The position numbers and the translations under genes are program-made. From Schizochytrium sp. TIO01 (lineage: Eukaryota > Protista > Bigyra: Labyrinthulomycetes), in contig SMSO01000035.1 of assembly GCA_004764695.1 (NCBI GenBank), positions 3,794,040-3,858,039 of the forward strand: a stretch of DNA of 64,000 nucleotides, in the 5' to 3' direction. The notes beneath the pieces are model-generated. The model did not search any database. It was not told the origin of the DNA and saw only the letters and a program-made list of their open reading frames with translations. Shown piece by piece: positions 6,807 to 22,763 of this stretch. Each line of letters starts with the position of its first letter. Position 1 is the first letter of the stretch.

Positions 6807-9800
6807 TTATACAAAAGGCATCCAGCCCTCGTACATCCTTGCTAGACGCTTTTCAGATGTCGCTTGGGCAGTCAACGTCGCAACTAATGTTTCCACGGGC
6901 TCCGACGCCGAGAGTTTGGCATCCAATCTTCGGAGAACCTCCGTTGCTTTGACTTGCCGACGTTTACGTTGTGTCTCCTCGTCCGGAGCACGTCGACCAA
7001 AGTCGCCAGTGCCCTTACGGGCTAATGTCAGTAGCTTGCGCAAGCTCTCGCGAATACGTTGAGTACATTGCACGAGCCGATTTAGGGTTATATCAACCTG
7101 TGAAGAGAGAGTACGCTGTGCAATAAGATCTGACGCAAGCTCGAAGAATGGGCCCTCCTGATCAGCACCACGCCGAATGTTGGAGATGTTCGCCCATACC
7201 TGGGCGTTATTTAATAAAGCAGTACTTCGCACATGTTCAAGTTCATTCTCAAGCGCAGAACGAAGCTGCTCTGCTTTATCAAGTTTTCCTTGGCGGTATT
7301 GACGCCTTGCTTCTTCAGCTTCATCAATTTCCTTGGCAGCCTCGCGAAGACCACGAGTTTGCTGCATGAGTTCCAAGCCCTCAAGTACACCTCGGGCTAA
7401 CTCAAAAACCTCGCGAGAAGTTTCTTCAACAAGCGGCAGGAACTCGGCATCTAGAGACATACTTTCCCATGACTGAAGTGCCATAGGGACCCCTGTGGTC
7501 CCGGCGGAAGACCCCTCTGTACCTTCAGGTTTGTTGCCAGAGTTGTATCCGGTGTCCTCTTCCATCGACGGTGGAATACGGATATCTGCCGCCTGTGCTT
7601 CAATCTTGGCCACACTACTGAGAACGCGTTTCAGGGATTCTGCACTCTCTAACACACTCCGTCGGCTGGTATCTGATTGCGCGCCTGCGCGTCGGAAGGC
7701 TTCAATAGAACGGCCCAATTCAGCATCCATGTACAGAAGTTCACGACGTAAATCAAGGCGTGCCTTGACAGCGCTTAATGCAGCGCCAGATCTATCAAAA
7801 GCCCCAATACCGGCATTCCAAAACCAATCCAACGCATACGCGTGTTTCCATGCAATAGTAGGATCAATGCATTGCTTTGCAATTTGTGCAACTTGATCCT
7901 GAACATTGTCGGGATTCACACCAGAAATAGTGCTCTCAATATTTTGCTGGCAGCGACGAATGCTTTGCGTCATTCGCTCAATATCCCTGTCCGAAAATGA
8001 ATAGTCCTTTACATCAACAAGAGACTGAGCTGTATCAAGAACCTCATGAATACTGCTTCGCAAAATCTGCAAGCGGGCAAGCCAGTCATCTACTAATGTT
8101 TGAGATCCATACGTAGAAGCTTCACCATACTGCTTCAATCCCCGCTGAAGATCATTGAGACAAGTCATGGCGCGATCTGTGGTGGCCTTGAGATCTGCTG
8201 CCGGAGCATCGCGACGAACATCAAATGTAGTGAAACTCTTTGTGAGAGAGGCTTCAACTCGAGGCAACACGTGTCCTTGCTGCAAAGCAATCGACCCGCT
8301 TGCGAGCTGGGCCTGCATACGATCACACCGAACCTGCACCTGGATAATTGATTGAAGCGCTTCTGTAAGCCATTCGCGACGAAGCAACAGATTGTTTCTC
8401 AGTTCATCGATTTCGGCCTCCTGTGCGTGCAGAACGGCACGAGGGTCGTCCTTGACCTGATTCTTAGGCGCGACCCCTCCCTCAATGTCATCTAACATAG
8501 ATTCTACATGACGTAAACTTGTCTCCTCAGAAGGTACTTGGTCAAGGGCGGTTTTATATTGTTCTTCAAGAGACAGAAGAGCATTCACATCTACCACATC
8601 GTCATCTTCAGAGAGGTGAACTTCGGAAGCAAGTAATGAAATACTCACATTTACATTGAGCGAGTTATCTGCAGTCTTTACTTTCGTTCCAGTCCACGAG
8701 ATACTTGAATCATTCACAATAGATCCTACTAATGACTGAATAAGCTCCTTGTGATTCCGCATGCACTGCATGGTGCTTCGCGCCCACCCTGCATATGCTC
8801 CATCTTTTTCCAAGAACTGAAGTCGTTCGCCTTCTGGACCGATTGGACGTTGCAACGGCAACGCATCACGCAGTACCTGAGTAAGTCTAAATGGAACAGT
8901 TTCGGGGACAGCCAGACGATGACCTGATTCAAAGCAAACATTGTAATCAATATGAACAAGTTCGCCACTCCCAGGGCCAGAGGAAAGGTCGAGCATGATA
9001 TTAGAGATGTGACGATCTCCTAATCCCATGATGTAGCCGAAAATACTACTTCCTGCCAATGAGCGAGAGTACCGTTTTGAGCGCTGCCACCAATCACCAG
9101 CATCGCGAGAAGTTGTGCAGAGTTCCCGCGCGAGCAAGTTGCGGGGCACCAAAGCTTCCAGTTCTCTAAGAGACTCAACAACGACTTGCTCGGGCCAATC
9201 GGTACGCCGAATTTCACGCGCAACATCAATTGAAACCCCCTTGGCTTCAGCAAGTCGTCGATGAATCACATTCAAATGGGCATCGCCCTTAAGAGCTTTG
9301 CGATCATCAGCCGCGCATCGCTCTTCATAAATATCCATAATAGGACGGGCTCCCTCAACCCATTGAACAAGGCCCACACTTTGTCCCAAAGCCACTACTT
9401 CATATGTGCGGATGCTGTGGGGCATTGGCATAAGAGAATCCATGATATAACCAATCTGTAGCACACGTTCATCAAGCCGCATATCGTCGCCACCCTTGAG
9501 CAGAAAACCATACTTCCCGCCATCCATGCCTCTAAGCCATACGCGTTTGGGGCGTGTTTTAGACGTCAGTGCTTGGATTCTGTCCTCAAATGAGTGAATA
9601 CCGACATCCCAATGTCCTGGCACTCGCAAAAGACTTGCGCCCTCCAAGGCAGTACTGCAAAATAGCTTAGGAGCAAACTCTCGCATTTTGGCATCTCCTT
9701 GCCGCATGTGAAGCCATGCTGCCAATTTACGCTCTTCCGATTCAAGAGCATCCCACGCAGATTCAACGCCATAAACTTCAAAGCTATCCATCATTTGAAT

Positions 9801-15960: not shown

Positions 15961-17279
15961 TGTAAGAAAAAAATAGTTGATGAAGTTGTAGGATCAAGCA
16001 ACGTAGCTAGCTATATAGGTTGATGTAGTTGAAAAATACACCAAGATCAAATCCATGAGATATGTCCAGAGAATTCTATCACCAGCAATATCTTGATTTC
16101 CTATTACAGAACCTAAAAGCCTGTCCGAGTCGTGAGAGCAGGCCTCTTTTAGTAGTCAGATTCTTTCCTGTGTTTCTATTTTATTTAATTAAAAGAGAAA
16201 AAAGTAAAAAAGTAAAAAACTCTCTTTCCAGTTATCAGTGATACTTCATAACCAAATCAATGCAATGAATGTTTTTAAAATACCCCTGTTCAGGTTTTAA
16301 AATGTGAGAAACGAGTTTTTCGAGAGTCCATTTTATTCGTACTTGAACCCCCCCCCCTCCCCCTGTCATTGAGAACATGATCATTTCTATGCTATGAGCG
16401 CTGGTTTCCCACCTCATTGCTGTGTATTTATTGGGTCAAGTCTGTTTTAGAAGGTAATGGAGGCGCCCATTCAGTAGGATTACTGCTCTTGATTCTTGGT
16501 GCCTTGACAAAAAAAGGACAAGGTAAAAATAAAATAGTATTTATTTTCTCCAAGGCTAATGACAGTAGGATCTCCAGTCCACCACGCCACTTGAAAGAAG
16601 AAATGCACACGTGGTAATCTGGTTTTCTCCATCCAAGCACTCTGGAACCTTCTCGAGGTATCATTTTCATTGCAGACAGTCAAAGTCTCTGACGCTGCTC
16701 TCAAATAATTTGATGGCTCCCAGAATAAACATTTGTTTTGATTAAAAGAGCCTGGACACACACAAAAAAACAAAACAAAAAACGAAAACCTTTCTTCTCT
16801 TCGACAAGTTTGGGCCGTATTGGTTCTTTCCGAGTCATTATGCAATAAGCCCGCGAGTTCAAAGTGCCTAACTAGTTCTACATTCCTCGCCATGCTTGCT
16901 CTCAATGGTCTTAGGTATGTATCCCTGCAAGCGCTCTCAACAGAACCGTCTTGCTTCCAAATCCACCCTCAGGAATTTTAATTTTAATTCTTAATTTTAA
17001 AAAATCCTCTTTACATGTATAGGTAGGTAGGTGGTATCCATTGAAGCGCCTCTCGCATACGAGAAGACTTTACATTGAACGACGAGCAATATTTCAGAGC
17101 ACTCAAATAGAGCAGTCGCTCTCAAATAGAGCAGTCGCTCTCAGGTGTTACTCACTTTTCAAAGAAAAAAATACTTTAGAAAACTGTTTTTGTTCTGTTT
17201 TCCTTTAAAATATTAGAAAATATGTGGAGGTACTACATAGAAGCATTCCCCATTTACGAGAAGACTTTACTTTGAACGA

Positions 17280-17733
17280 TGAAGCAGCACTACTAGGAGT
17301 CGAGGCTAGTGAGATCAGCGTCCTGGACACCGACGGCATGATCTCCGTCGAGTACGTCGCTACGAGCGAGGCCGGGTCGGGAGGAGACCCCCTGACTGCC
17401 GAGAATCTTCAAGCGATCCAATCCATCCATAGCCTCCTCCTGGCTAGCGTAACCTCGTTGGTGGAGAGTGGACTTGGACTCGATGCCGGTGACATCGAGA
17501 CGAGTGAGCTCGACCTTTGTACGGGTCGGACTTGCAATGATCGAGGAACTTGTAATAGCGACACCGGGGTCTGTGCTTGTGATTCTGGCGACTACTGGGG
17601 CATCAATTGCGAGACGAGCGTCAGTTGCCTCGCGGGGACCAAGCACCCTTCAAAGGCCTATTGTTTGTGCGACTTCCCAGCCTACGGCGAGCGCTGAGGG
17701 AACGCTGCCATTGATTGTGGTGTGTGCGCGTAA
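17280..17733 (+). pseudogene. 5'-truncated SEA-like/EGF-like extracellular protein gene end
   Basis: DLCTGRTCNDRGTCNSDTGVCACDSGDYWGINCE followed by a second EGF-like module; TGA at 17695-17697 sits where Cys is expected (YGER*), and the frame continues GNAAIDCGVCA to TAA at 17733; no own start codon. Confidence 0.75.
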
Positions 17734-17783
17734 ATTAAATCCATTTTTTTGGGGGGGGATTTGTGCAATGATCTGAGTGTGAT

Positions 17784-17796
17784 CTAACCCTAACCC
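17784..17796 (+). promoter_or_regulatory. Telomere-like/telo-box motif CTAACCCTAACCC upstream of the orphan ORF
   Basis: Two tandem CTAACC units about 72 nt before the ATG at 17869; function inferred. Confidence 0.3.
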
Positions 17797-17868
17797 CTGA
17801 GCGCTCGCTCGGTGAAGGTTTGGTCTTACAAGTCAACCAAACATCTATCTTGATCGCGTCGAGCAAAC

Positions 17869-18426
17869 ATGGCGCCCTTTGACGAGTCTAACAACAACGA
17901 CGGTAGCTCCGGTGGGATGATGGACCTTGCGCGACTCGTTGATTTAAGTCACAAAGTAATGAATTCCATGCGGGAAATTTATCGTTTGGATGTAGCTCAT
18001 GTCAAGAAGCCTGACTTAGAAAAGCTATTGCTTGATATAGAGAAAGCAACCTCCCAGGCATTAAGGGACCCCGGCATAGATAAAAACTCGGCAATCAATC
18101 TCGCCATACATTGTGGTATGGACGAATGCGTCGATTTGTTGGTAACATTGATTGAAAATGTCAAGGAGAGTTTCGCCGCACTTTCGAAACATAAAAATTA
18201 TTATCATGTTTGCCCTGATGTGTATGTCGACTTGTATAATGACGTGATCGAATCGCTCCAGAAAAATATCCCTGAATTCACAATTGAGTTAAGCAATGAG
18301 GAATTCGAAAACACCATGAACGATCTCGGAGCAAAATTGTCATCTATCAACAAATTATACAAGGTGTACAAGTTTAGCAAGAACCTTTGTGAGAATATAA
18401 TTATCACACCCCGGGATAGTTATTAA
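17869..18426 (+). CDS. Hypothetical protein, 185 aa, predicted helical, no recognised family
   Basis: Intact ATG-to-TAA ORF with AAACATGG start context and amphipathic helical patterning; visibly more AT-rich than its flanks. Confidence 0.65.
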   Translation: MAPFDESNNNDGSSGGMMDLARLVDLSHKVMNSMREIYRLDVAHVKKPDLEKLLLDIEKATSQALRDPGIDKNSAINLAIHCGMDECVDLLVTLIENVKESFAALSKHKNYYHVCPDVYVDLYNDVIESLQKNIPEFTIELSNEEFENTMNDLGAKLSSINKLYKVYKFSKNLCENIIITPRDSY

Positions 18427-18501
18427 ATCTTTGCTACATCAATCTATGAATTTACCAACCCCTCCCTTAAACAAGGAAATCAACATTTGATTAGTTTATT
18501 T

Positions 18502-18930
18502 TTAGTTACCACCCTGTGTCCATTGAAGTGTACATCGCTTCCCATGCCAAGGCCATCGACACTGGCAGTAGGAGAGGCCTGTGAAGGGTTGGGATCCATT
18601 GTTGGCACATGAGACGGCGATCTCGCAATTTACACCCCATTATCCACTTTTCTCCTTACAAGTACATAACCCAGTCAAGCTATCACATGTCCCGCGGCCA
18701 TTGCAATCTCGATTGGTGCAAAGGTCCACTGTGCTTGAGCTAATATCGACGCCCAGCTCTTCTTCGATAGAGGATGCAAGTGCACTTGGTTGTGCGCTAA
18801 TGATCTTCGATGCTTTCAGTTGCGCTGCAACCCCCCCGTCGTCGACGTTGTCATCGCTTGCGTCGAATGTGAATATATAGGTCAGGCTAATGCTACCACT
18901 TCCCGTGTCACACCAAGTCAGTGTTGAACC
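18502..18930 (-). pseudogene. 5'-truncated SEA-like/EGF-like gene end, paralogous to 17280-17733
   Basis: GSGSISLTY...DLCTNRDCNGRGTCDSLTGLCTCKEKSG*WGVNCEIAVSC...YCQCRWPWHGKRC...GGN*; premature TAA at 18640-18642 sits where Tyr is expected (paralog has GDYWGINCE). Confidence 0.8.
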
Positions 18931-19961
18931 ATATTTCAGAACACTCAAATAGAGGCGCCCTCAATTAGAGCAGTGGCTCTCAAATGGAGCAGTCGCCCTC
19001 AAATAGAGCAATCGCTCTCAAAGAGAGCAGTCGCCCTTAAGAAGAGCAGTCGCTCTCAAAGAGAGCAGTCGCTCCCAAATAGAGCAGTCGCTCCCAAATA
19101 GAGCAGGTGTTACTCACTTTTCAAAGAAAAATAATAATTAGAAAACTGTTTTTTGTTCTGTTTTCCTTTTAAGTATTAGAAAATGTGCGGAGGTACTATA
19201 TAGAAGCATTCCCCATTTACGAGAAGAATTTACTTTGAACGAGGGACAATATTTCAAAATACTCAAATAGAAGCGCCCTCAAATAGAGCAGTGGCTCTCA
19301 AATAGAGCAGTCGCCCTCAAATAGAGCAATCGCTCTCAAAGAGAGCAGTTGCTTTCAAAACGAGCAGGTGTGCTTTACTCATTAAAAAACAAAAACAAAA
19401 AAACGTTTTTAAATGTGTTTTATGTTTTTTTAAATTAGAAAATATGTGCAGGTACCTAGAAGTATCTCTCATGTACGAGACGACTTTACTTTGAACGATA
19501 ATCTAGTGAACTTCTCCATACTGCCCGTAATCCTGTGTTAAGCTTATTCTTTTCTGAGCCTATCGATGATAACACCCCCTCTGGTAGTGCGCTTGGTATA
19601 ATCTGCCACCATCCAAAAAACATATGAGAGCACTTAGTTCTCGATTAGTGACTATGCGAAAAAAAAAAAAGGAAAAAAAAAAGGATTTCTATCTACTGAC
19701 TTCTTCTTTTCATCATCAAACTTTTAATTAAAATAAATTAAAGAAACGAAAAGGCGACCTTGATAGCAATTTATTAATTAGTACTATATCAAGTAAAAAA
19801 ATAATTTTAAGACTATTTAATTTTTGGTTTGCAAACTTGTACAAAATCGAAAGCAAACCCCAAACGCGCAAAATCAAGAAAGCAAACCCCAAACATCGTA
19901 CACGACGGCAGTGTATTGGACAAAGGTATTCTTTCAGGGCACGTGAACAAGGTATACAACC

Positions 19962-22763
19962 ATGCCGTGGCGCGAGCAACATCAACATGTCAACGGCGGG
20001 TCCTTCCGGTATAGGCCACCTTTCGAACCAGAGGGCAACTTACAGAACAAGTCCAAGTATTGGGAGTCTCACAGTCAGCTTGGGCAGTACCTCACCGGGG
20101 ACGACCTTGACCCTAAGAAGTATCCTCACCTTCTCATTGAACGGTTTGCTCCAGCCCCAAACCCACTAGAGAAACTCACAGCGCATTTCGACGCTATGCA
20201 AATGCATGAAAAATCCGTCAACTTTGGGCTTTTTGGAAAGTCCAACGACAAGAGGTGCACAAGCCAGCGCGACTATGCCTTTGCGAGCTCTAAAGATTTC
20301 CACAGTGAAATGATGAAAAGGCATGACGAGCTTAGAAAATCTGACAACGCTGATGCACCAATTATCTCCGTCTACTCCTTCAAAGGAGGATGCGGAAAGT
20401 CTACGTCTACAATTAACTTAGCAGGAGGGCTGGTTGCGCAAGGTTATCGGGTTGGGATCATCGACGGTGACGCCCAAGGGAATTCGTCAGCTTTCTTCTC
20501 TAATGATAAACTTGCCAACGCAATCCTCGAGACGCTAGACGCTTCTTCGCATGCACCCGAAACCGAATCTTGCATAAGTGTGGATGAAAAAAATAGGGAG
20601 AACGAAGAGGACCATGGTGATACCGACGTAGGCGACGACGACAGCCATGGAAGCAAAAGATGCGGTGCGTTTGACAGCCCTGAAGGAAAGACTTCAAATT
20701 ACATGAGGTCTTGTAAGACAATGAGAGGCGAGCAGAGTGATAGGGCTTCTCTGTACATGGGCTCTAGCGGCGAACGTATGGATGATGGAAGTGGTTATCA
20801 CGATTCCCCAGGCCGCGTCTTCTCGAGTGAGGATGGGTTTGCTACCAGCAGAACTTTTGCTGCTAGTTCTATCTTGAATGCATATGATGCCGAGACTCGA
20901 ACCCATGTGAAACAAGAGATTCCGGACCCGCCCGGAGTTCATGTAAAGCAAGAAAGTCCGCATCGCCCCAGACCTCCAGATTCGAGCCCTCCTACACAGA
21001 GTCCGAGGACAGGGTCAACTAGAGAACACCCGCGGAGCTTCAAACTTCATAATGATACTGAAAGGGTGACTCAAATATACATGAGAGATCGCGAAAATAG
21101 TGGCTGGGACTCGACAACTTCATTAGGGTCAATTTTAAGTCTATTCATAGAGGAAAATTCGAATAAACTTATCAAAGGAGATCCCACCCAGTGCGATGAA
21201 TTCGAAATGCAAAGAGTTGTATTTCCTCCTGACCTACAAGGAAACTTTGGGGGGGAAATCTACATTCTCCCCGTAGGTGATGACCTTCCGGCTGAGGACA
21301 TTCTTTCAAATGAGTTTACCAAAACCCCAGTTGGTAGTTGCTCTTTCTTGTGTAGCTTTCGAATGCTCTGCCACACTCTTGCTCGCAAGTACAAGCTTGA
21401 TGTGGTTCTCGTGGATTTGGGTCCAGCTAAAGCTTTGTTCAACACATGGGTAGTTGCCAGTAGCGATTATGTTCTACCTCCAGCTCAGGCCACATGTTTC
21501 GGATTACAAGCGTCAACTCAAATGTGGCAGAAAGTAATGCCGGAGATTTGGGCCCAACAACAAGAGTGGCACCTGAAAACTCTCCCCACGCCAGGTGCTT
21601 CCTATAAGCATTACTCTCCAGTTGAGAAGGAAAAAATTCGCCGCGTTTGCATCTTCAATCCTCTCACAAAACTTCTCCCAGTTCTTATTAACAACTTTGA
21701 TAAGAACCGTAGTGGCCAAAAAGTAGTAGACGACTTTTATCTAAACCGCAATGGCCAAAGAGCAGCAAACGTCATTAGTCTTGGACTCAACGACTCGCTT
21801 TTCATTCACTCAATAGAGACGGCATTCGCTAGTTTGTCTGAGAATAGCAACCTTTGCAGCAAAGAATCTGGGATGAAGCTCCCTTCTCCTTGGTTTCACC
21901 AAAACAACCCTTTTCCTGTACGAACACACAACCTTTCTCTCGCAGAAGGAAACGTGGTGTGGATGGGACTCGAAAACTCCTCGCTTATTGGACTTTCAGA
22001 GCGCCGCTATTTGCCAGTCGCCCTGTTGTACAAAACCGATGAGAACTTTTCCACTCTACCAGAAGGAAGGCAGCGGTATTTTGATTTATCAGGCCGCCTT
22101 GCTGATACATGCAACATTGGAATGGGCCATAAGCCAAGTCTAACGCAGGAGAAGGATGTGATACTACTTGTTCACCTTCTTGCAGACATTGTTGAATCCG
22201 TATCATGGCCAGTGTCGAAAAAACAGTTTCGAGCTGCAGTCTTTAATCGAATCAGAGACCGTATTCAAAATAAAGAGTGCGGTTGGGATAGATTTCCAGA
22301 CGCTATCGTGGAGAGTTCTCTTAAGCGTTATGAAAAAATTTCCCAGCGGTGCGACATTGTTCTTCGGGCGCATGGTCCTTATGACATGAACCCTATACTC
22401 GTACAGCTTGAATATGTTTCACGCACCAATCGACTGAGGACTTTGGATGCAATCATAAGAGACCTTGAGAGCAGGAAAGTCCTGGCGGAGAAGGAATCTG
22501 ATAGAGGGACATGCCAAGATTGCTACTCCGTTGTTTTTCAGTATGCTACAGGAAAAGATGAGAATAAGCTTTCTAGCGGAATACTCCAACGCCGTGACGA
22601 TAATGCTGCAGACTCTTCTCCTAGAGGCAAACGAAGCAGGGATGGGCAGCCAAAGAGCGACAGCATCTTCGAGATTTGTGAGATCCCACCTTTCAACGGA
22701 GTTCCTTGTAAGGTTGCTTCATTTCGTGGTGTCGAGAGAATCTGGCAATCTCATCATAAATAA
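19962..22763 (+). CDS. ParA/Soj-family (SIMIBI) ATPase with low-complexity insertion and putative C-terminal PD-(D/E)XK-like domain, 933 aa
   Basis: Deviant Walker A ISVYSFKGGCGKST, A' box GIIDGDAQGNSS, Walker B DVVLVDLGP...SSDYVLPP; C-terminal IVE...RCDIVL...ILVQLEY; intronless with ACAACCATG start context. Confidence 0.85.
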   Translation: MPWREQHQHVNGGSFRYRPPFEPEGNLQNKSKYWESHSQLGQYLTGDDLDPKKYPHLLIERFAPAPNPLEKLTAHFDAMQMHEKSVNFGLFGKSNDKRCTSQRDYAFASSKDFHSEMMKRHDELRKSDNADAPIISVYSFKGGCGKSTSTINLAGGLVAQGYRVGIIDGDAQGNSSAFFSNDKLANAILETLDASSHAPETESCISVDEKNRENEEDHGDTDVGDDDSHGSKRCGAFDSPEGKTSNYMRSCKTMRGEQSDRASLYMGSSGERMDDGSGYHDSPGRVFSSEDGFATSRTFAASSILNAYDAETRTHVKQEIPDPPGVHVKQESPHRPRPPDSSPPTQSPRTGSTREHPRSFKLHNDTERVTQIYMRDRENSGWDSTTSLGSILSLFIEENSNKLIKGDPTQCDEFEMQRVVFPPDLQGNFGGEIYILPVGDDLPAEDILSNEFTKTPVGSCSFLCSFRMLCHTLARKYKLDVVLVDLGPAKALFNTWVVASSDYVLPPAQATCFGLQASTQMWQKVMPEIWAQQQEWHLKTLPTPGASYKHYSPVEKEKIRRVCIFNPLTKLLPVLINNFDKNRSGQKVVDDFYLNRNGQRAANVISLGLNDSLFIHSIETAFASLSENSNLCSKESGMKLPSPWFHQNNPFPVRTHNLSLAEGNVVWMGLENSSLIGLSERRYLPVALLYKTDENFSTLPEGRQRYFDLSGRLADTCNIGMGHKPSLTQEKDVILLVHLLADIVESVSWPVSKKQFRAAVFNRIRDRIQNKECGWDRFPDAIVESSLKRYEKISQRCDIVLRAHGPYDMNPILVQLEYVSRTNRLRTLDAIIRDLESRKVLAEKESDRGTCQDCYSVVFQYATGKDENKLSSGILQRRDDNAADSSPRGKRSRDGQPKSDSIFEICEIPPFNGVPCKVASFRGVERIWQSHHK

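What the first reader, a model, noticed from the sequence alone, without database searches (positions are those of the whole stretch)
17280..18930. 1.65-kb gene-dense cargo inserted at one point inside a repeat unit
Seen: uninterrupted units read TTGAAC-GACGAGCA-ATATTTCAGAGCACTC (17075) and TTGAAC-GAGGGACA-ATATTTCAAAATACTC (19235). The second unit stops at TTGAACGA (17279) and resumes at ATATTTCAGAACACTC (18931), with TTGAAC recurring at the right junction (18924-18929), suggesting microhomology. Both ends of the insert cut through coding sequence, so it is a DNA-level slice of another locus rather than a retrocopy or a TE with termini. Intergenic gaps are only ~135 and ~75 bp. Inference: foreign (viral or other-locus) DNA was captured at a break in the repeat, possibly a recurrent capture site. 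If other copies carry different cargo, this would be an integron/CRISPR-like archive next to an ATPase-nuclease.
Basis: partly seen in the sequence, partly recalled or inferred. Interest (0 to 1): 0.8.

Follow-up and report, generated by a model that had tools for sequence, protein, structure and literature searches.

The report
Giant-virus DNA scrap in host repeat
A 1,645-base piece of DNA, likely from a giant herpes-related virus (mirusvirus), sits inside a short repeat of a marine protist's chromosome, where some strains also carry the empty site; it is likely a one-off repair accident that is now decaying, not a system that archives foreign DNA.

Summary
The insertion is real. Contigs carry it in 6 of 6 DNA-type runs laid, and an empty form of the same repeat unit appears in 3 of 6. 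The empty form corrects the junctions. The insert is 1,645 bp (17280-18924), flanked by a 4-nt repeat, TGAA, not a 6-nt TTGAAC. The cargo is two converging, 5'-cut ends of paralogous genes, each with a premature stop, around a 185-aa orphan ORF whose changes between strains look neutral (7 replacement, 2 silent). The gene family (variable head, conserved EGF-bearing tail) occurs in giant-virus contigs with mirusvirus-type markers (Snf7, TBP, split RNA polymerase); best match 54% identity. The host is most likely Aurantiochytrium, a known mirusvirus host. No other cargo was seen at the site, and only 1 of 4 repeat cores is interrupted. The neighbouring ParA does end in a PD-(D/E)XK-like domain, but its E-x-K reads Q-L-E, so it is probably inactive. 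Verdict: an old, polymorphic, probably one-off capture of viral DNA at a staggered break. The integron/CRISPR-like archive is not supported.

The parts
17037..19499 (+). Short tandem array: 4 cores (about 47 nt, ending TTGAACGA) and 3 bodies of 189-310 nt, each with 19-nt sub-repeats and an AT-rich stretch; bodies 79-92% identical
17075..17095 (+). Unit 1 site, uninterrupted (TTGAAC-GACGAGCA-ATATTTC)
17280..17283 (+). Left copy of the 4-nt junction repeat TGAA; likely host-derived, because it puts E at a position that is L, F or M in all 15 homologues aligned
17284..17733 (+). 5'-cut 3' end of a virus-type secreted-protein gene (conserved tail with two EGF-like modules); premature TGA at 17695-17697, natural stop at 17731-17733
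17734..17868 (.). 135-bp gap; holds CTAACCCTAACCC (17784-17796)
17869..18426 (+). 185-aa orphan ORF; the only relative found is P0001, likely an allele from another strain (90%); 7 replacement and 2 silent changes, plus a divergent 41-nt block at its end
18502..18924 (-). 5'-cut 3' end of a second paralogue, converging on the first; premature TAA at 18640-18642, natural stop at 18502-18504
18925..18928 (+). Right copy of TGAA; unit 2 resumes here
   Evidence: joint 17279 to 18925 in X5, X6, X7
19235..19255 (+). Unit 3 site, uninterrupted (TTGAAC-GAGGGACA-ATATTTC)
   Evidence: table 5c
19453..19499 (+). Fourth core; the array ends right after TTGAACGAT, and no matching right half lies elsewhere in the window
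19962..22763 (+). 933-aa ParA-family ATPase (fold at residues 130-718) with a C-terminal PD-(D/E)XK-like domain (D798 kept; Q815-L-E817 in place of E-x-K), predicted inactive as a nuclease

Best explanation
This is a 1,645-bp fragment, likely of mirusvirus DNA, that was probably patched once, long ago, into a double-strand break in unit 2 of a short host repeat, leaving the 4-nt TGAA on both sides, and it has since been decaying while some strains also keep the empty site. Shown: the filled and empty forms, the TGAA repeat, the truncated and stop-bearing gene ends, and homologues in giant-virus contigs. Inferred: a viral genome present in the nucleus supplied a broken piece. A staggered cut around TGAA was filled in by end joining, or one end annealed through a chance TGAA at the donor's end. 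The piece has no machinery of its own and no function.
For: Left junction bridged by 31 or more letters on each side in X1, X2, X8; right junction in X1, X5, X6, X7, X8 (X1 may be the window's source, leaving studies P2, P5 on the left and P3, P4, P5 on the right). Empty joint 17279 to 18925 with 4 shared letters in X5, X6, X7. In X5 and X6 the filled and empty depths add up to the depth of the contig they share (102.2 + 90.8 against 198.5; 59.3 + 53.6 against 112.1), as two chromosome copies would. Same ends in every run. No variant at either premature stop in X5 or X6. ORF185 changes 7:2 on 409:101 sites, and right gene end 3 of 3 replacement. The five clear homologue-bearing contig groups among 18 loci are gene-dense and intron-free. 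Four of them carry giant-virus genes: L003 Rpb1, thymidylate synthase, kinase; L004/L005 ribonucleotide reductase, Rpb1; L006-L008 A22-type resolvase and TBP, with Snf7 in L006. Rpb1 ORFs of L003-L005 stop early in domain 5, as with the two-ORF RNAPL of thraustochytrid mirusviruses (bioRxiv 10.64898/2026.07.28.741200, section 7). Snf7 is reported absent from nucleocytoviruses (PMC12768974, passage). Best match of the left end is the viral L004_b (54% over 145 aa), against 40% for the Hondaea protein. L004/L005 hold two family members 1.9 kb apart with one other gene between, so a paralogue pair around one ORF is natural for such a genome. No host donor at 80% or more appeared in the four runs, apart from a 55-nt relic.
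Against: The actual donor genome was not found. The best match is only 54%, the tree does not resolve the left end (no starred group holds it), and no capsid or terminase gene lies in the contigs fetched. One homologue is in a thraustochytrid assembly (Hondaea, P0007), so a host-resident family is not excluded. The empty joint has only 26 letters on its shorter side. In X7 the depths (insert 22.9-24.6, empty 16.6, flanks about 29-30) fit an extra tandem unit better than a second allele; contigs cannot phase this. The empty form could also be derived, by deletion between the two TGAA. The 6 nt at the site differ at 3 of 6 places between every pair of units (P 0.009 for this window, 0.26 when any window is allowed), which a hot spot would also give.
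Confidence: 0.7

Rival explanations
1. The whole repeat-plus-ParA block is itself a relic of viral origin, or the cargo came from a host-resident copy of the family, and the empty unit arose later by deletion between the two TGAA.
For: AurliV-1 encodes a ParA with a similar Walker A segment followed by a long low-complexity insert (PMC12606086 supplement 3; compared by eye). 19-nt repeats beside a parA resemble a partition or origin region (recalled). A second relic of the left gene's end lies elsewhere in the genomes of X1, X2, X5, X6, X7. A full-length homologue is in Hondaea.
Against: The empty spacer has the same length as those of units 1 and 3, as an ancestral site would. The repeat patterns were found in neither viral nor metagenome contigs. 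The ParA family gave no viral contig. Hondaea carries endogenised mirusvirus DNA itself (PMC10827195, passage).
Confidence: 0.13
2. The site is a recurrent break and capture point, cut by a ParA-PD-(D/E)XK protein (this one or an ancestor), so the array works or once worked as an archive of viral DNA.
For: The neighbour 460 bp away has a PD-(D/E)XK-like tail, with E-x-K intact in 10 of 11 homologues that have the domain. The array also ends at the same core position (19499). The 6-nt spacer is the most varied part of the site. A 4-nt duplication fits a staggered cut.
Against: One cargo only, with the same ends in 6 of 6 DNA-type runs. 1 of 4 cores interrupted. No other cargo among loose ends (0 of 7 rows). 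The window's copy reads Q-L-E, and its closest homologue P0011 is also degenerate. The cargo is mostly pseudogene ends. Spacer variability is not significant after allowing for the scan (P 0.26).
Confidence: 0.08
3. The cargo is an excised invertible segment (shufflon or Mu G-segment type: two alternative C-termini back to back), integrated as a circle by a recombinase through a TGAA core.
For: Two converging paralogous 3' ends of similar length (149 and 140 codons), and a 4-nt direct repeat that chance gives about 0.4% of the time.
Against: The cuts are about 8 codons apart in homologous register, and the two junctions are not inverted copies of one site (11 of 44 letters). In this family the C-terminus is the conserved part and the head varies, the reverse of a shufflon. 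No constant 5' part or recombinase lies beside it. No strand-changing joint was listed in 7 runs.
Confidence: 0.06
4. Misassembly.
For: Junctions lie in a repeat.
Against: Both junctions are bridged by contigs from independent studies with their own SNPs.
Confidence: 0.01

Closest known systems
Small degraded giant-virus insertions in protist genomes (Acanthamoeba 'scattershot' integration, PMC12210455, passages read)
   Same: Strain-variable, pseudogenised viral ORFs in host chromosomes, no mobility machinery, relaxed selection.
   Different: Here the donor is likely a mirusvirus, the piece is interstitial between conserved host genes, and both junctions and the empty site are resolved to the base.
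Endogenous and episomal mirusviruses of Aurantiochytrium limacinum (AurliV-1, AurliV-2; PMC12606086)
   Same: Same likely host group; nuclear viral DNA is a plausible source; AurliV-1 has FG-GAP secreted proteins and a ParA.
   Different: Those are about 300-kb expressed genomes. This is 1.6 kb and dead. No match to this family was found in their gene tables, but table cells are cut at 400 characters, so long proteins' tails could not be searched.
Capture of foreign DNA at double-strand breaks by end joining (NUMT-type insertions; recalled)
   Same: Arbitrary slice cut through coding sequence, short junction repeat, presence/absence polymorphism.
   Different: Donor is viral rather than organellar; target is a repeat unit.
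Integrons and CRISPR arrays (recalled)
   Same: Foreign DNA inside a repeat array next to a nuclease-like gene.
   Different: One cargo only, gene fragments rather than whole cassettes or short spacers, no integrase, nuclease motif lost.
Shufflons and the phage Mu G segment (recalled)
   Same: Two converging paralogous 3' ends in one segment.
   Different: No inverted recombination sites, no constant 5' part, no invertase; the conserved part, not the variable part, is duplicated.

Membership tests
Endogenous viral fragment (mirusvirus-derived) | Genes whose closest relatives lie in viral genomes | tested here: met
   Best hit 54% in contig L004/L005 with ribonucleotide reductase and Rpb1; further members beside TBP, Snf7 and an A22-type resolvase
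Endogenous viral fragment (mirusvirus-derived) | Joined to host chromosomal DNA, with an empty site known | tested here: met
   flanked by an SMG1-like PIKK gene and other host genes
Endogenous viral fragment (mirusvirus-derived) | Donor lineage is Mirusviricota (HK97 capsid, terminase, portal in the donor) | tested here: inconclusive
   Only indirect markers (Snf7, early-ending Rpb1). No capsid gene in the contigs fetched; the fold of a protease-like ORF in L003 failed (pLDDT 32)
Endogenous viral fragment (mirusvirus-derived) | Decay after insertion | tested here: met
   Premature stops in both gene ends; 7:2 replacement to silent in ORF185 (few changes)
CRISPR-like or integron-like archive | Several repeat copies each holding different cargo | tested here: not met
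   1 of 4 cores interrupted; same cargo in 6 of 6 DNA-type runs; 0 of 7 loose-end rows with other cargo. Sensitivity is limited: units 1 and 4 themselves were not picked up in that call
CRISPR-like or integron-like archive | Dedicated integrase (Cas1 or tyrosine recombinase) next to the array | tested here: not met
   No such Pfam family in the 8 ORFs scanned around the array (the window has 25 ORFs of 150 aa or more)
CRISPR-like or integron-like archive | Cargo processed to guide or small RNAs, or expressed as whole cassettes | not testable with these tools
   No small-RNA data; two of three cargo genes are fragments
PD-(D/E)XK nuclease (C-terminus of the neighbouring ParA) | Fold of the domain | tested here: inconclusive
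   Alignment to homologues with PD...E-x-K; one homologue has a sub-cutoff PDDEXK_3 hit; weak Foldseek rows to Hjc, cap-snatching endonuclease and AdnA at E 0.19-0.24; domain not folded alone
PD-(D/E)XK nuclease (C-terminus of the neighbouring ParA) | Catalytic D and E-x-K | tested here: not met
   D798 kept, but Q-L-E at 815-817; E-x-K in 10 of 11 homologues with the domain (3 of 14 lack it)
DNA transposon or Polinton-type element | Terminal inverted repeats and own transposase or integrase | tested here: not met
   No inverted repeat at the ends among the 25 longest of 83 pairs; junctions 11 of 44 alike as inverted copies; no such Pfam family
DNA transposon or Polinton-type element | Target-site duplication | tested here: met
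   TGAA once in the empty site, twice around the insert
Shufflon or Mu G-type invertible segment | Two alternative 3' gene ends in opposite orientation | tested here: met
Shufflon or Mu G-type invertible segment | Inverted recombination sites at the same position of both genes, with a constant 5' part and an invertase | tested here: not met
   Cuts about 8 codons apart; 11 of 44 identity; non-coding repeat upstream; no invertase

The most novel reading that the evidence does not exclude
The repeat array and its neighbouring ParA-PD-(D/E)XK gene are the remains of a eukaryotic cut-and-capture system: an ATPase-nuclease cut the repeat core with a 4-nt stagger, leaving scars (the variable 6-nt spacer) and sometimes captured mirusvirus DNA, and active copies with an intact E-x-K motif still do so in other protists.
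Probability: 0.07. Interest if true: 0.85.

Novelty: new member of a known kind. Interest (0 to 1): 0.3.

Why it matters
As it most likely stands, it is a base-resolved example of how mirusvirus-type DNA leaks into a thraustochytrid chromosome in small pieces, with filled and empty forms both in culture collections. It records a past infection by a virus other than those matched here. Two side results may matter more than the insert. One is a family of secreted proteins in giant-virus contigs with swappable heads (FG-GAP propeller, RCC1-like and others) on a conserved EGF-bearing tail, candidates for host-binding surface proteins; no paper held mirusvirus, signal peptide and EGF-like together. 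The other is a family of long ParA proteins ending in a PD-(D/E)XK domain. If the unlikely archive reading held, it would be a new form of eukaryotic capture of viral DNA.

Tried and rejected
No genome of the window is held, so other repeat copies could be sought only through contigs laid on the window; 7 of the 24 listed runs were laid. No RNA holder listed. X15, RNA only by guess, has contigs over 17266-17706 and 17857-18957; this says nothing on expression. ORF185: no relative except P0001 among 144 candidates of near length; none in viral contigs, PHROGs or the fetched loci; the Atlas could not read it. Family searches of viral contigs gave one spurious phage hit (L001) and nothing. Of 18 loci, L002-L008 were taken as family members; L009-L019 match only a generic EGF stretch and were set aside. 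Repeat patterns: 0 in viral contigs, 0 in metagenome contigs; no plasmid match; no Rfam match. ParA family: no viral contig; its C-terminal region alone found only itself. The VIA search covered only the ParA domain. Fold of the protease-like ORF of L003 failed and had no PDB sequence match. Atlas search with the Hondaea tail gave no usable hit. Motif searches in the AurliV-1 and -2 tables found nothing, but cells are cut at 400 characters. The 41-nt divergent block in ORF185 is not an inversion or a local copy. The joint with GGGACA between is unit 3 itself, not a new cargo. Rejected: misassembly, retrocopy, transposon, shufflon, 6-nt microhomology. Literature searches for a eukaryotic repeat array that captures giant-virus DNA, for viral capture with target duplication and for ParA-nuclease fusions in protists listed nothing on point; only listings were seen. 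Supplements of the bioRxiv preprints could not be seen and may list this family.

Full report
Observation. The window holds a short array at 17037-19499: four copies of a core ending in TTGAACGA, and three bodies with 19-nt sub-repeats and an AT-rich stretch. The core matches 5 times at up to 3 mismatches against 0.10 expected; four matches are in the array. Units 1 and 3 read TTGAAC, 8 nt, ATATTTC. Unit 2 is interrupted by coding DNA.

Is it real? No whole genome is held, so contigs of public runs were laid on the region: 7 of 24 listed runs, six DNA-type (X1, X2, X5, X6, X7, X8) and one RNA by guess. All six carry the insert. The left junction is bridged by 31 or more letters on each side in X1, X2 and X8, the right in X1, X5, X6, X7 and X8. 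X1 matches the window without a difference over 1,733 nt and may be its source; the others come from four further studies and carry their own changes (for example 30 in 1,708 nt for X5 and X6). This is not a misassembly.

The empty site. X5, X6 and X7 each have a contig that joins 17279 to 18925, skipping 1,645 nt, with 4 letters fitting either side. The empty unit therefore reads TTGAAC-GATGAACC-ATATTTC, the same spacing as units 1 and 3. The insert is flanked by TGAA on both sides, which cargo composition would give about 0.4% of the time. In X5 and X6 the filled and empty depths add up to that of the contig they share (102.2 + 90.8 against 198.5; 59.3 + 53.6 against 112.1), consistent with two chromosome copies. 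In X1 the insert has about half the depth of the ParA flank (187 against 353), with no empty joint listed. Against a simple allele reading: the joint has only 26 letters on its short side, contig depth is a poor copy measure, and in X7 the sum exceeds the flank depth, so the empty unit may there be an extra tandem copy.

The cargo. The left part (17284-17733, +) and right part (18502-18924, -) are converging 3' ends of two paralogous genes, 42% identical over 84 aa. Each has a premature stop (17695-17697; 18640-18642) and reads on in family-like sequence to a natural stop. No variant at these stops is listed for X5 or X6. Between them lies a 185-aa ORF with no relative but P0001, likely an allele. 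Outside a divergent 41-nt block at its end, it differs from the X5/X6 form by 7 replacement and 2 silent changes on 409 and 101 sites, about neutral, though on few changes.

The donor. Full-length relatives are proteins of up to 1,245 aa, most starting with a signal-peptide-like hydrophobic stretch (by eye), with a variable head (FG-GAP propeller, RCC1-like, others), often a PT linker, and the conserved EGF-bearing tail. A metagenome scan gave 18 loci; L002-L008 hold true members, the other 11 only a generic EGF stretch. Their neighbours are giant-virus genes: Rpb1, thymidylate synthase and a kinase (L003); ribonucleotide reductase, deaminase and Rpb1 (L004, L005); A22-type resolvase, TBP, dNMP kinase and Snf7 (L006). 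The Rpb1 ORFs stop early in domain 5, as expected of the two-ORF RNAPL described for thraustochytrid mirusviruses (bioRxiv 10.64898/2026.07.28.741200; abstract, section 7, part 1 of section 10 and passages read). Snf7 is described as not identified in nucleocytoviruses (PMC12768974, passages). The left end's best match is L004_b at 54% over 145 aa; the Hondaea protein is 40%, and Hondaea carries endogenised mirusvirus (PMC10827195, passages). L004/L005 hold two members 1.9 kb apart around an ankyrin gene, in divergent orientation, so paired paralogues occur in such genomes. Limits: the tree does not resolve either end, no capsid gene was seen in these contigs, and the true donor was not found. 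The AurliV-1 and -2 tables gave no motif match, but their cells are cut at 400 characters (PMC12606086, passages and supplements 3 and 4 searched).

The host. The neighbouring ParA is 99% identical to an MMETSP transcript protein. That MMETSP0961 is Aurantiochytrium limacinum is recalled: the taxon id in the record resolves to a fungus and differs from the species' id by two swapped digits. Run sizes of 62-69 million letters fit its roughly 62-Mb genome (10.1101/2023.06.15.545109, listing and passages). An earlier, unchecked note of this scan reports an AurliV-2-like virus in the same genome.

Is it an archive? With the left and right sides of the site laid at 80% likeness, the loose-end table was complete and had no other cargo at the site in X1, X5, X6 or X15 (0 of 7 rows). 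The only other joint is unit 3 itself. In one search, 22 of 31 rows were shown and none lay behind a core. Sensitivity is limited, since units 1 and 4 were not picked up. The repeat patterns are absent from viral and metagenome contigs. The 6 nt at the site carry 5 changes among three units; P is 0.009 for that fixed window and 0.26 for any window, so a hot spot is possible but not shown.

The ATPase-nuclease. The 933-aa neighbour folds as ParA over residues 130-718 (Z 23.5, rmsd 2.7, 250 aligned). Pfam sees no nuclease in it, but its homologues end in a PD...E-x-K domain: 10 of the 11 that have the domain keep E-x-K, and 3 of 14 lack the domain. The window's copy keeps D798 but reads Q-L-E, and its closest homologue is also degenerate. 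Foldseek gives only weak rows to PD-(D/E)XK nucleases (E 0.19-0.24). AurliV-1 encodes a ParA of similar layout by eye.

Mechanism. Most likely, a broken piece of nuclear viral DNA was joined once into a break in unit 2. The left TGAA is probably host, since it puts E where homologues have L, F or M. The right TGAA fits the donor's reading frame and could be either. A 4-nt staggered cut filled in, or annealing at a chance TGAA, both give the product seen. Identical ends in all strains, shared stops and strain-level divergence point to a single old event followed by drift. The back-to-back gene ends suggested an invertible segment, but the cuts are about 8 codons apart, the junctions are not inverted copies (11 of 44), and the duplicated part is the conserved one.

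Comparison and verdict. It works like capture of foreign DNA at a break and belongs with the small decayed giant-virus insertions described in Acanthamoeba (PMC12210455, passages). It fails the tests for CRISPR-like, integron, transposon and shufflon membership. Searches for a published eukaryotic capture array or for this protein family (listings only) showed none. New member of a known kind; interest 0.3. The archive reading keeps about 7%.

Noticed in passing
P0002-P0009; L002-L008: A family of likely secreted proteins in giant-virus (probably mirusvirus) contigs with swappable heads (FG-GAP propeller, RCC1-like, others, or almost none) on a conserved EGF-bearing tail; candidate host-binding surface proteins.
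   Followed up: partly
window 19962-22763; P0011-P0026: A family of long ParA ATPases with a low-complexity insert after Walker A and a C-terminal PD-(D/E)XK domain, intact in 10 of 11 homologues that have it; the window's copy is degenerate but kept open and present in a transcriptome.
   Followed up: partly
window 17679-17733 (laid contigs of X1, X2, X5, X6, X7): A second relic of the left gene's 3' end lies elsewhere in these genomes (8 differences in 55 nt, other flanks, about twice the insert's depth in X5 and X6): the same viral gene was captured or copied at another place.
   Followed up: no
window 17751-17827 and 17867-18501 (run X2): A low-depth contig (21 against about 60-65) skips these two stretches; the second runs from just before the ATG of ORF185 to the stop of the right gene. 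It may be a deleted derivative or a related segment with another middle.
   Followed up: no
window 18379-18419: The last 41 nt of ORF185 differ at 16 places between the window/X1 and X5, X6, X15, while staying in frame to the same stop; not an inversion or a local copy.
   Followed up: partly
window 17784-17796: CTAACCCTAACCC, a TTAGGG-type telomere-like run, unique in the window (0.02 expected); the host telomere is reported as TTAGG. A 10-nt match lies upstream of the family gene in L006.
   Followed up: partly
window 19401-19402: Seven listed loose-end rows in four runs diverge right after this A-rich stretch with several different sequences; other copies of a unit end or chance A-tract matches.
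   Followed up: no
window 17269: A loose end before this place was listed for X1 and X2 but not for X1; probably a short chance match.
   Followed up: partly
L003:5488-6018: 176-aa ORF that by eye resembles a herpes- or phage-type capsid maturation protease (recalled); no Pfam or PDB match, single-sequence fold failed.
   Followed up: partly
L005:2533-3906 and 7093-8553: Two near-identical ankyrin genes flank one member of the family in a viral contig, suggesting a duplication or recombination unit.
   Followed up: no
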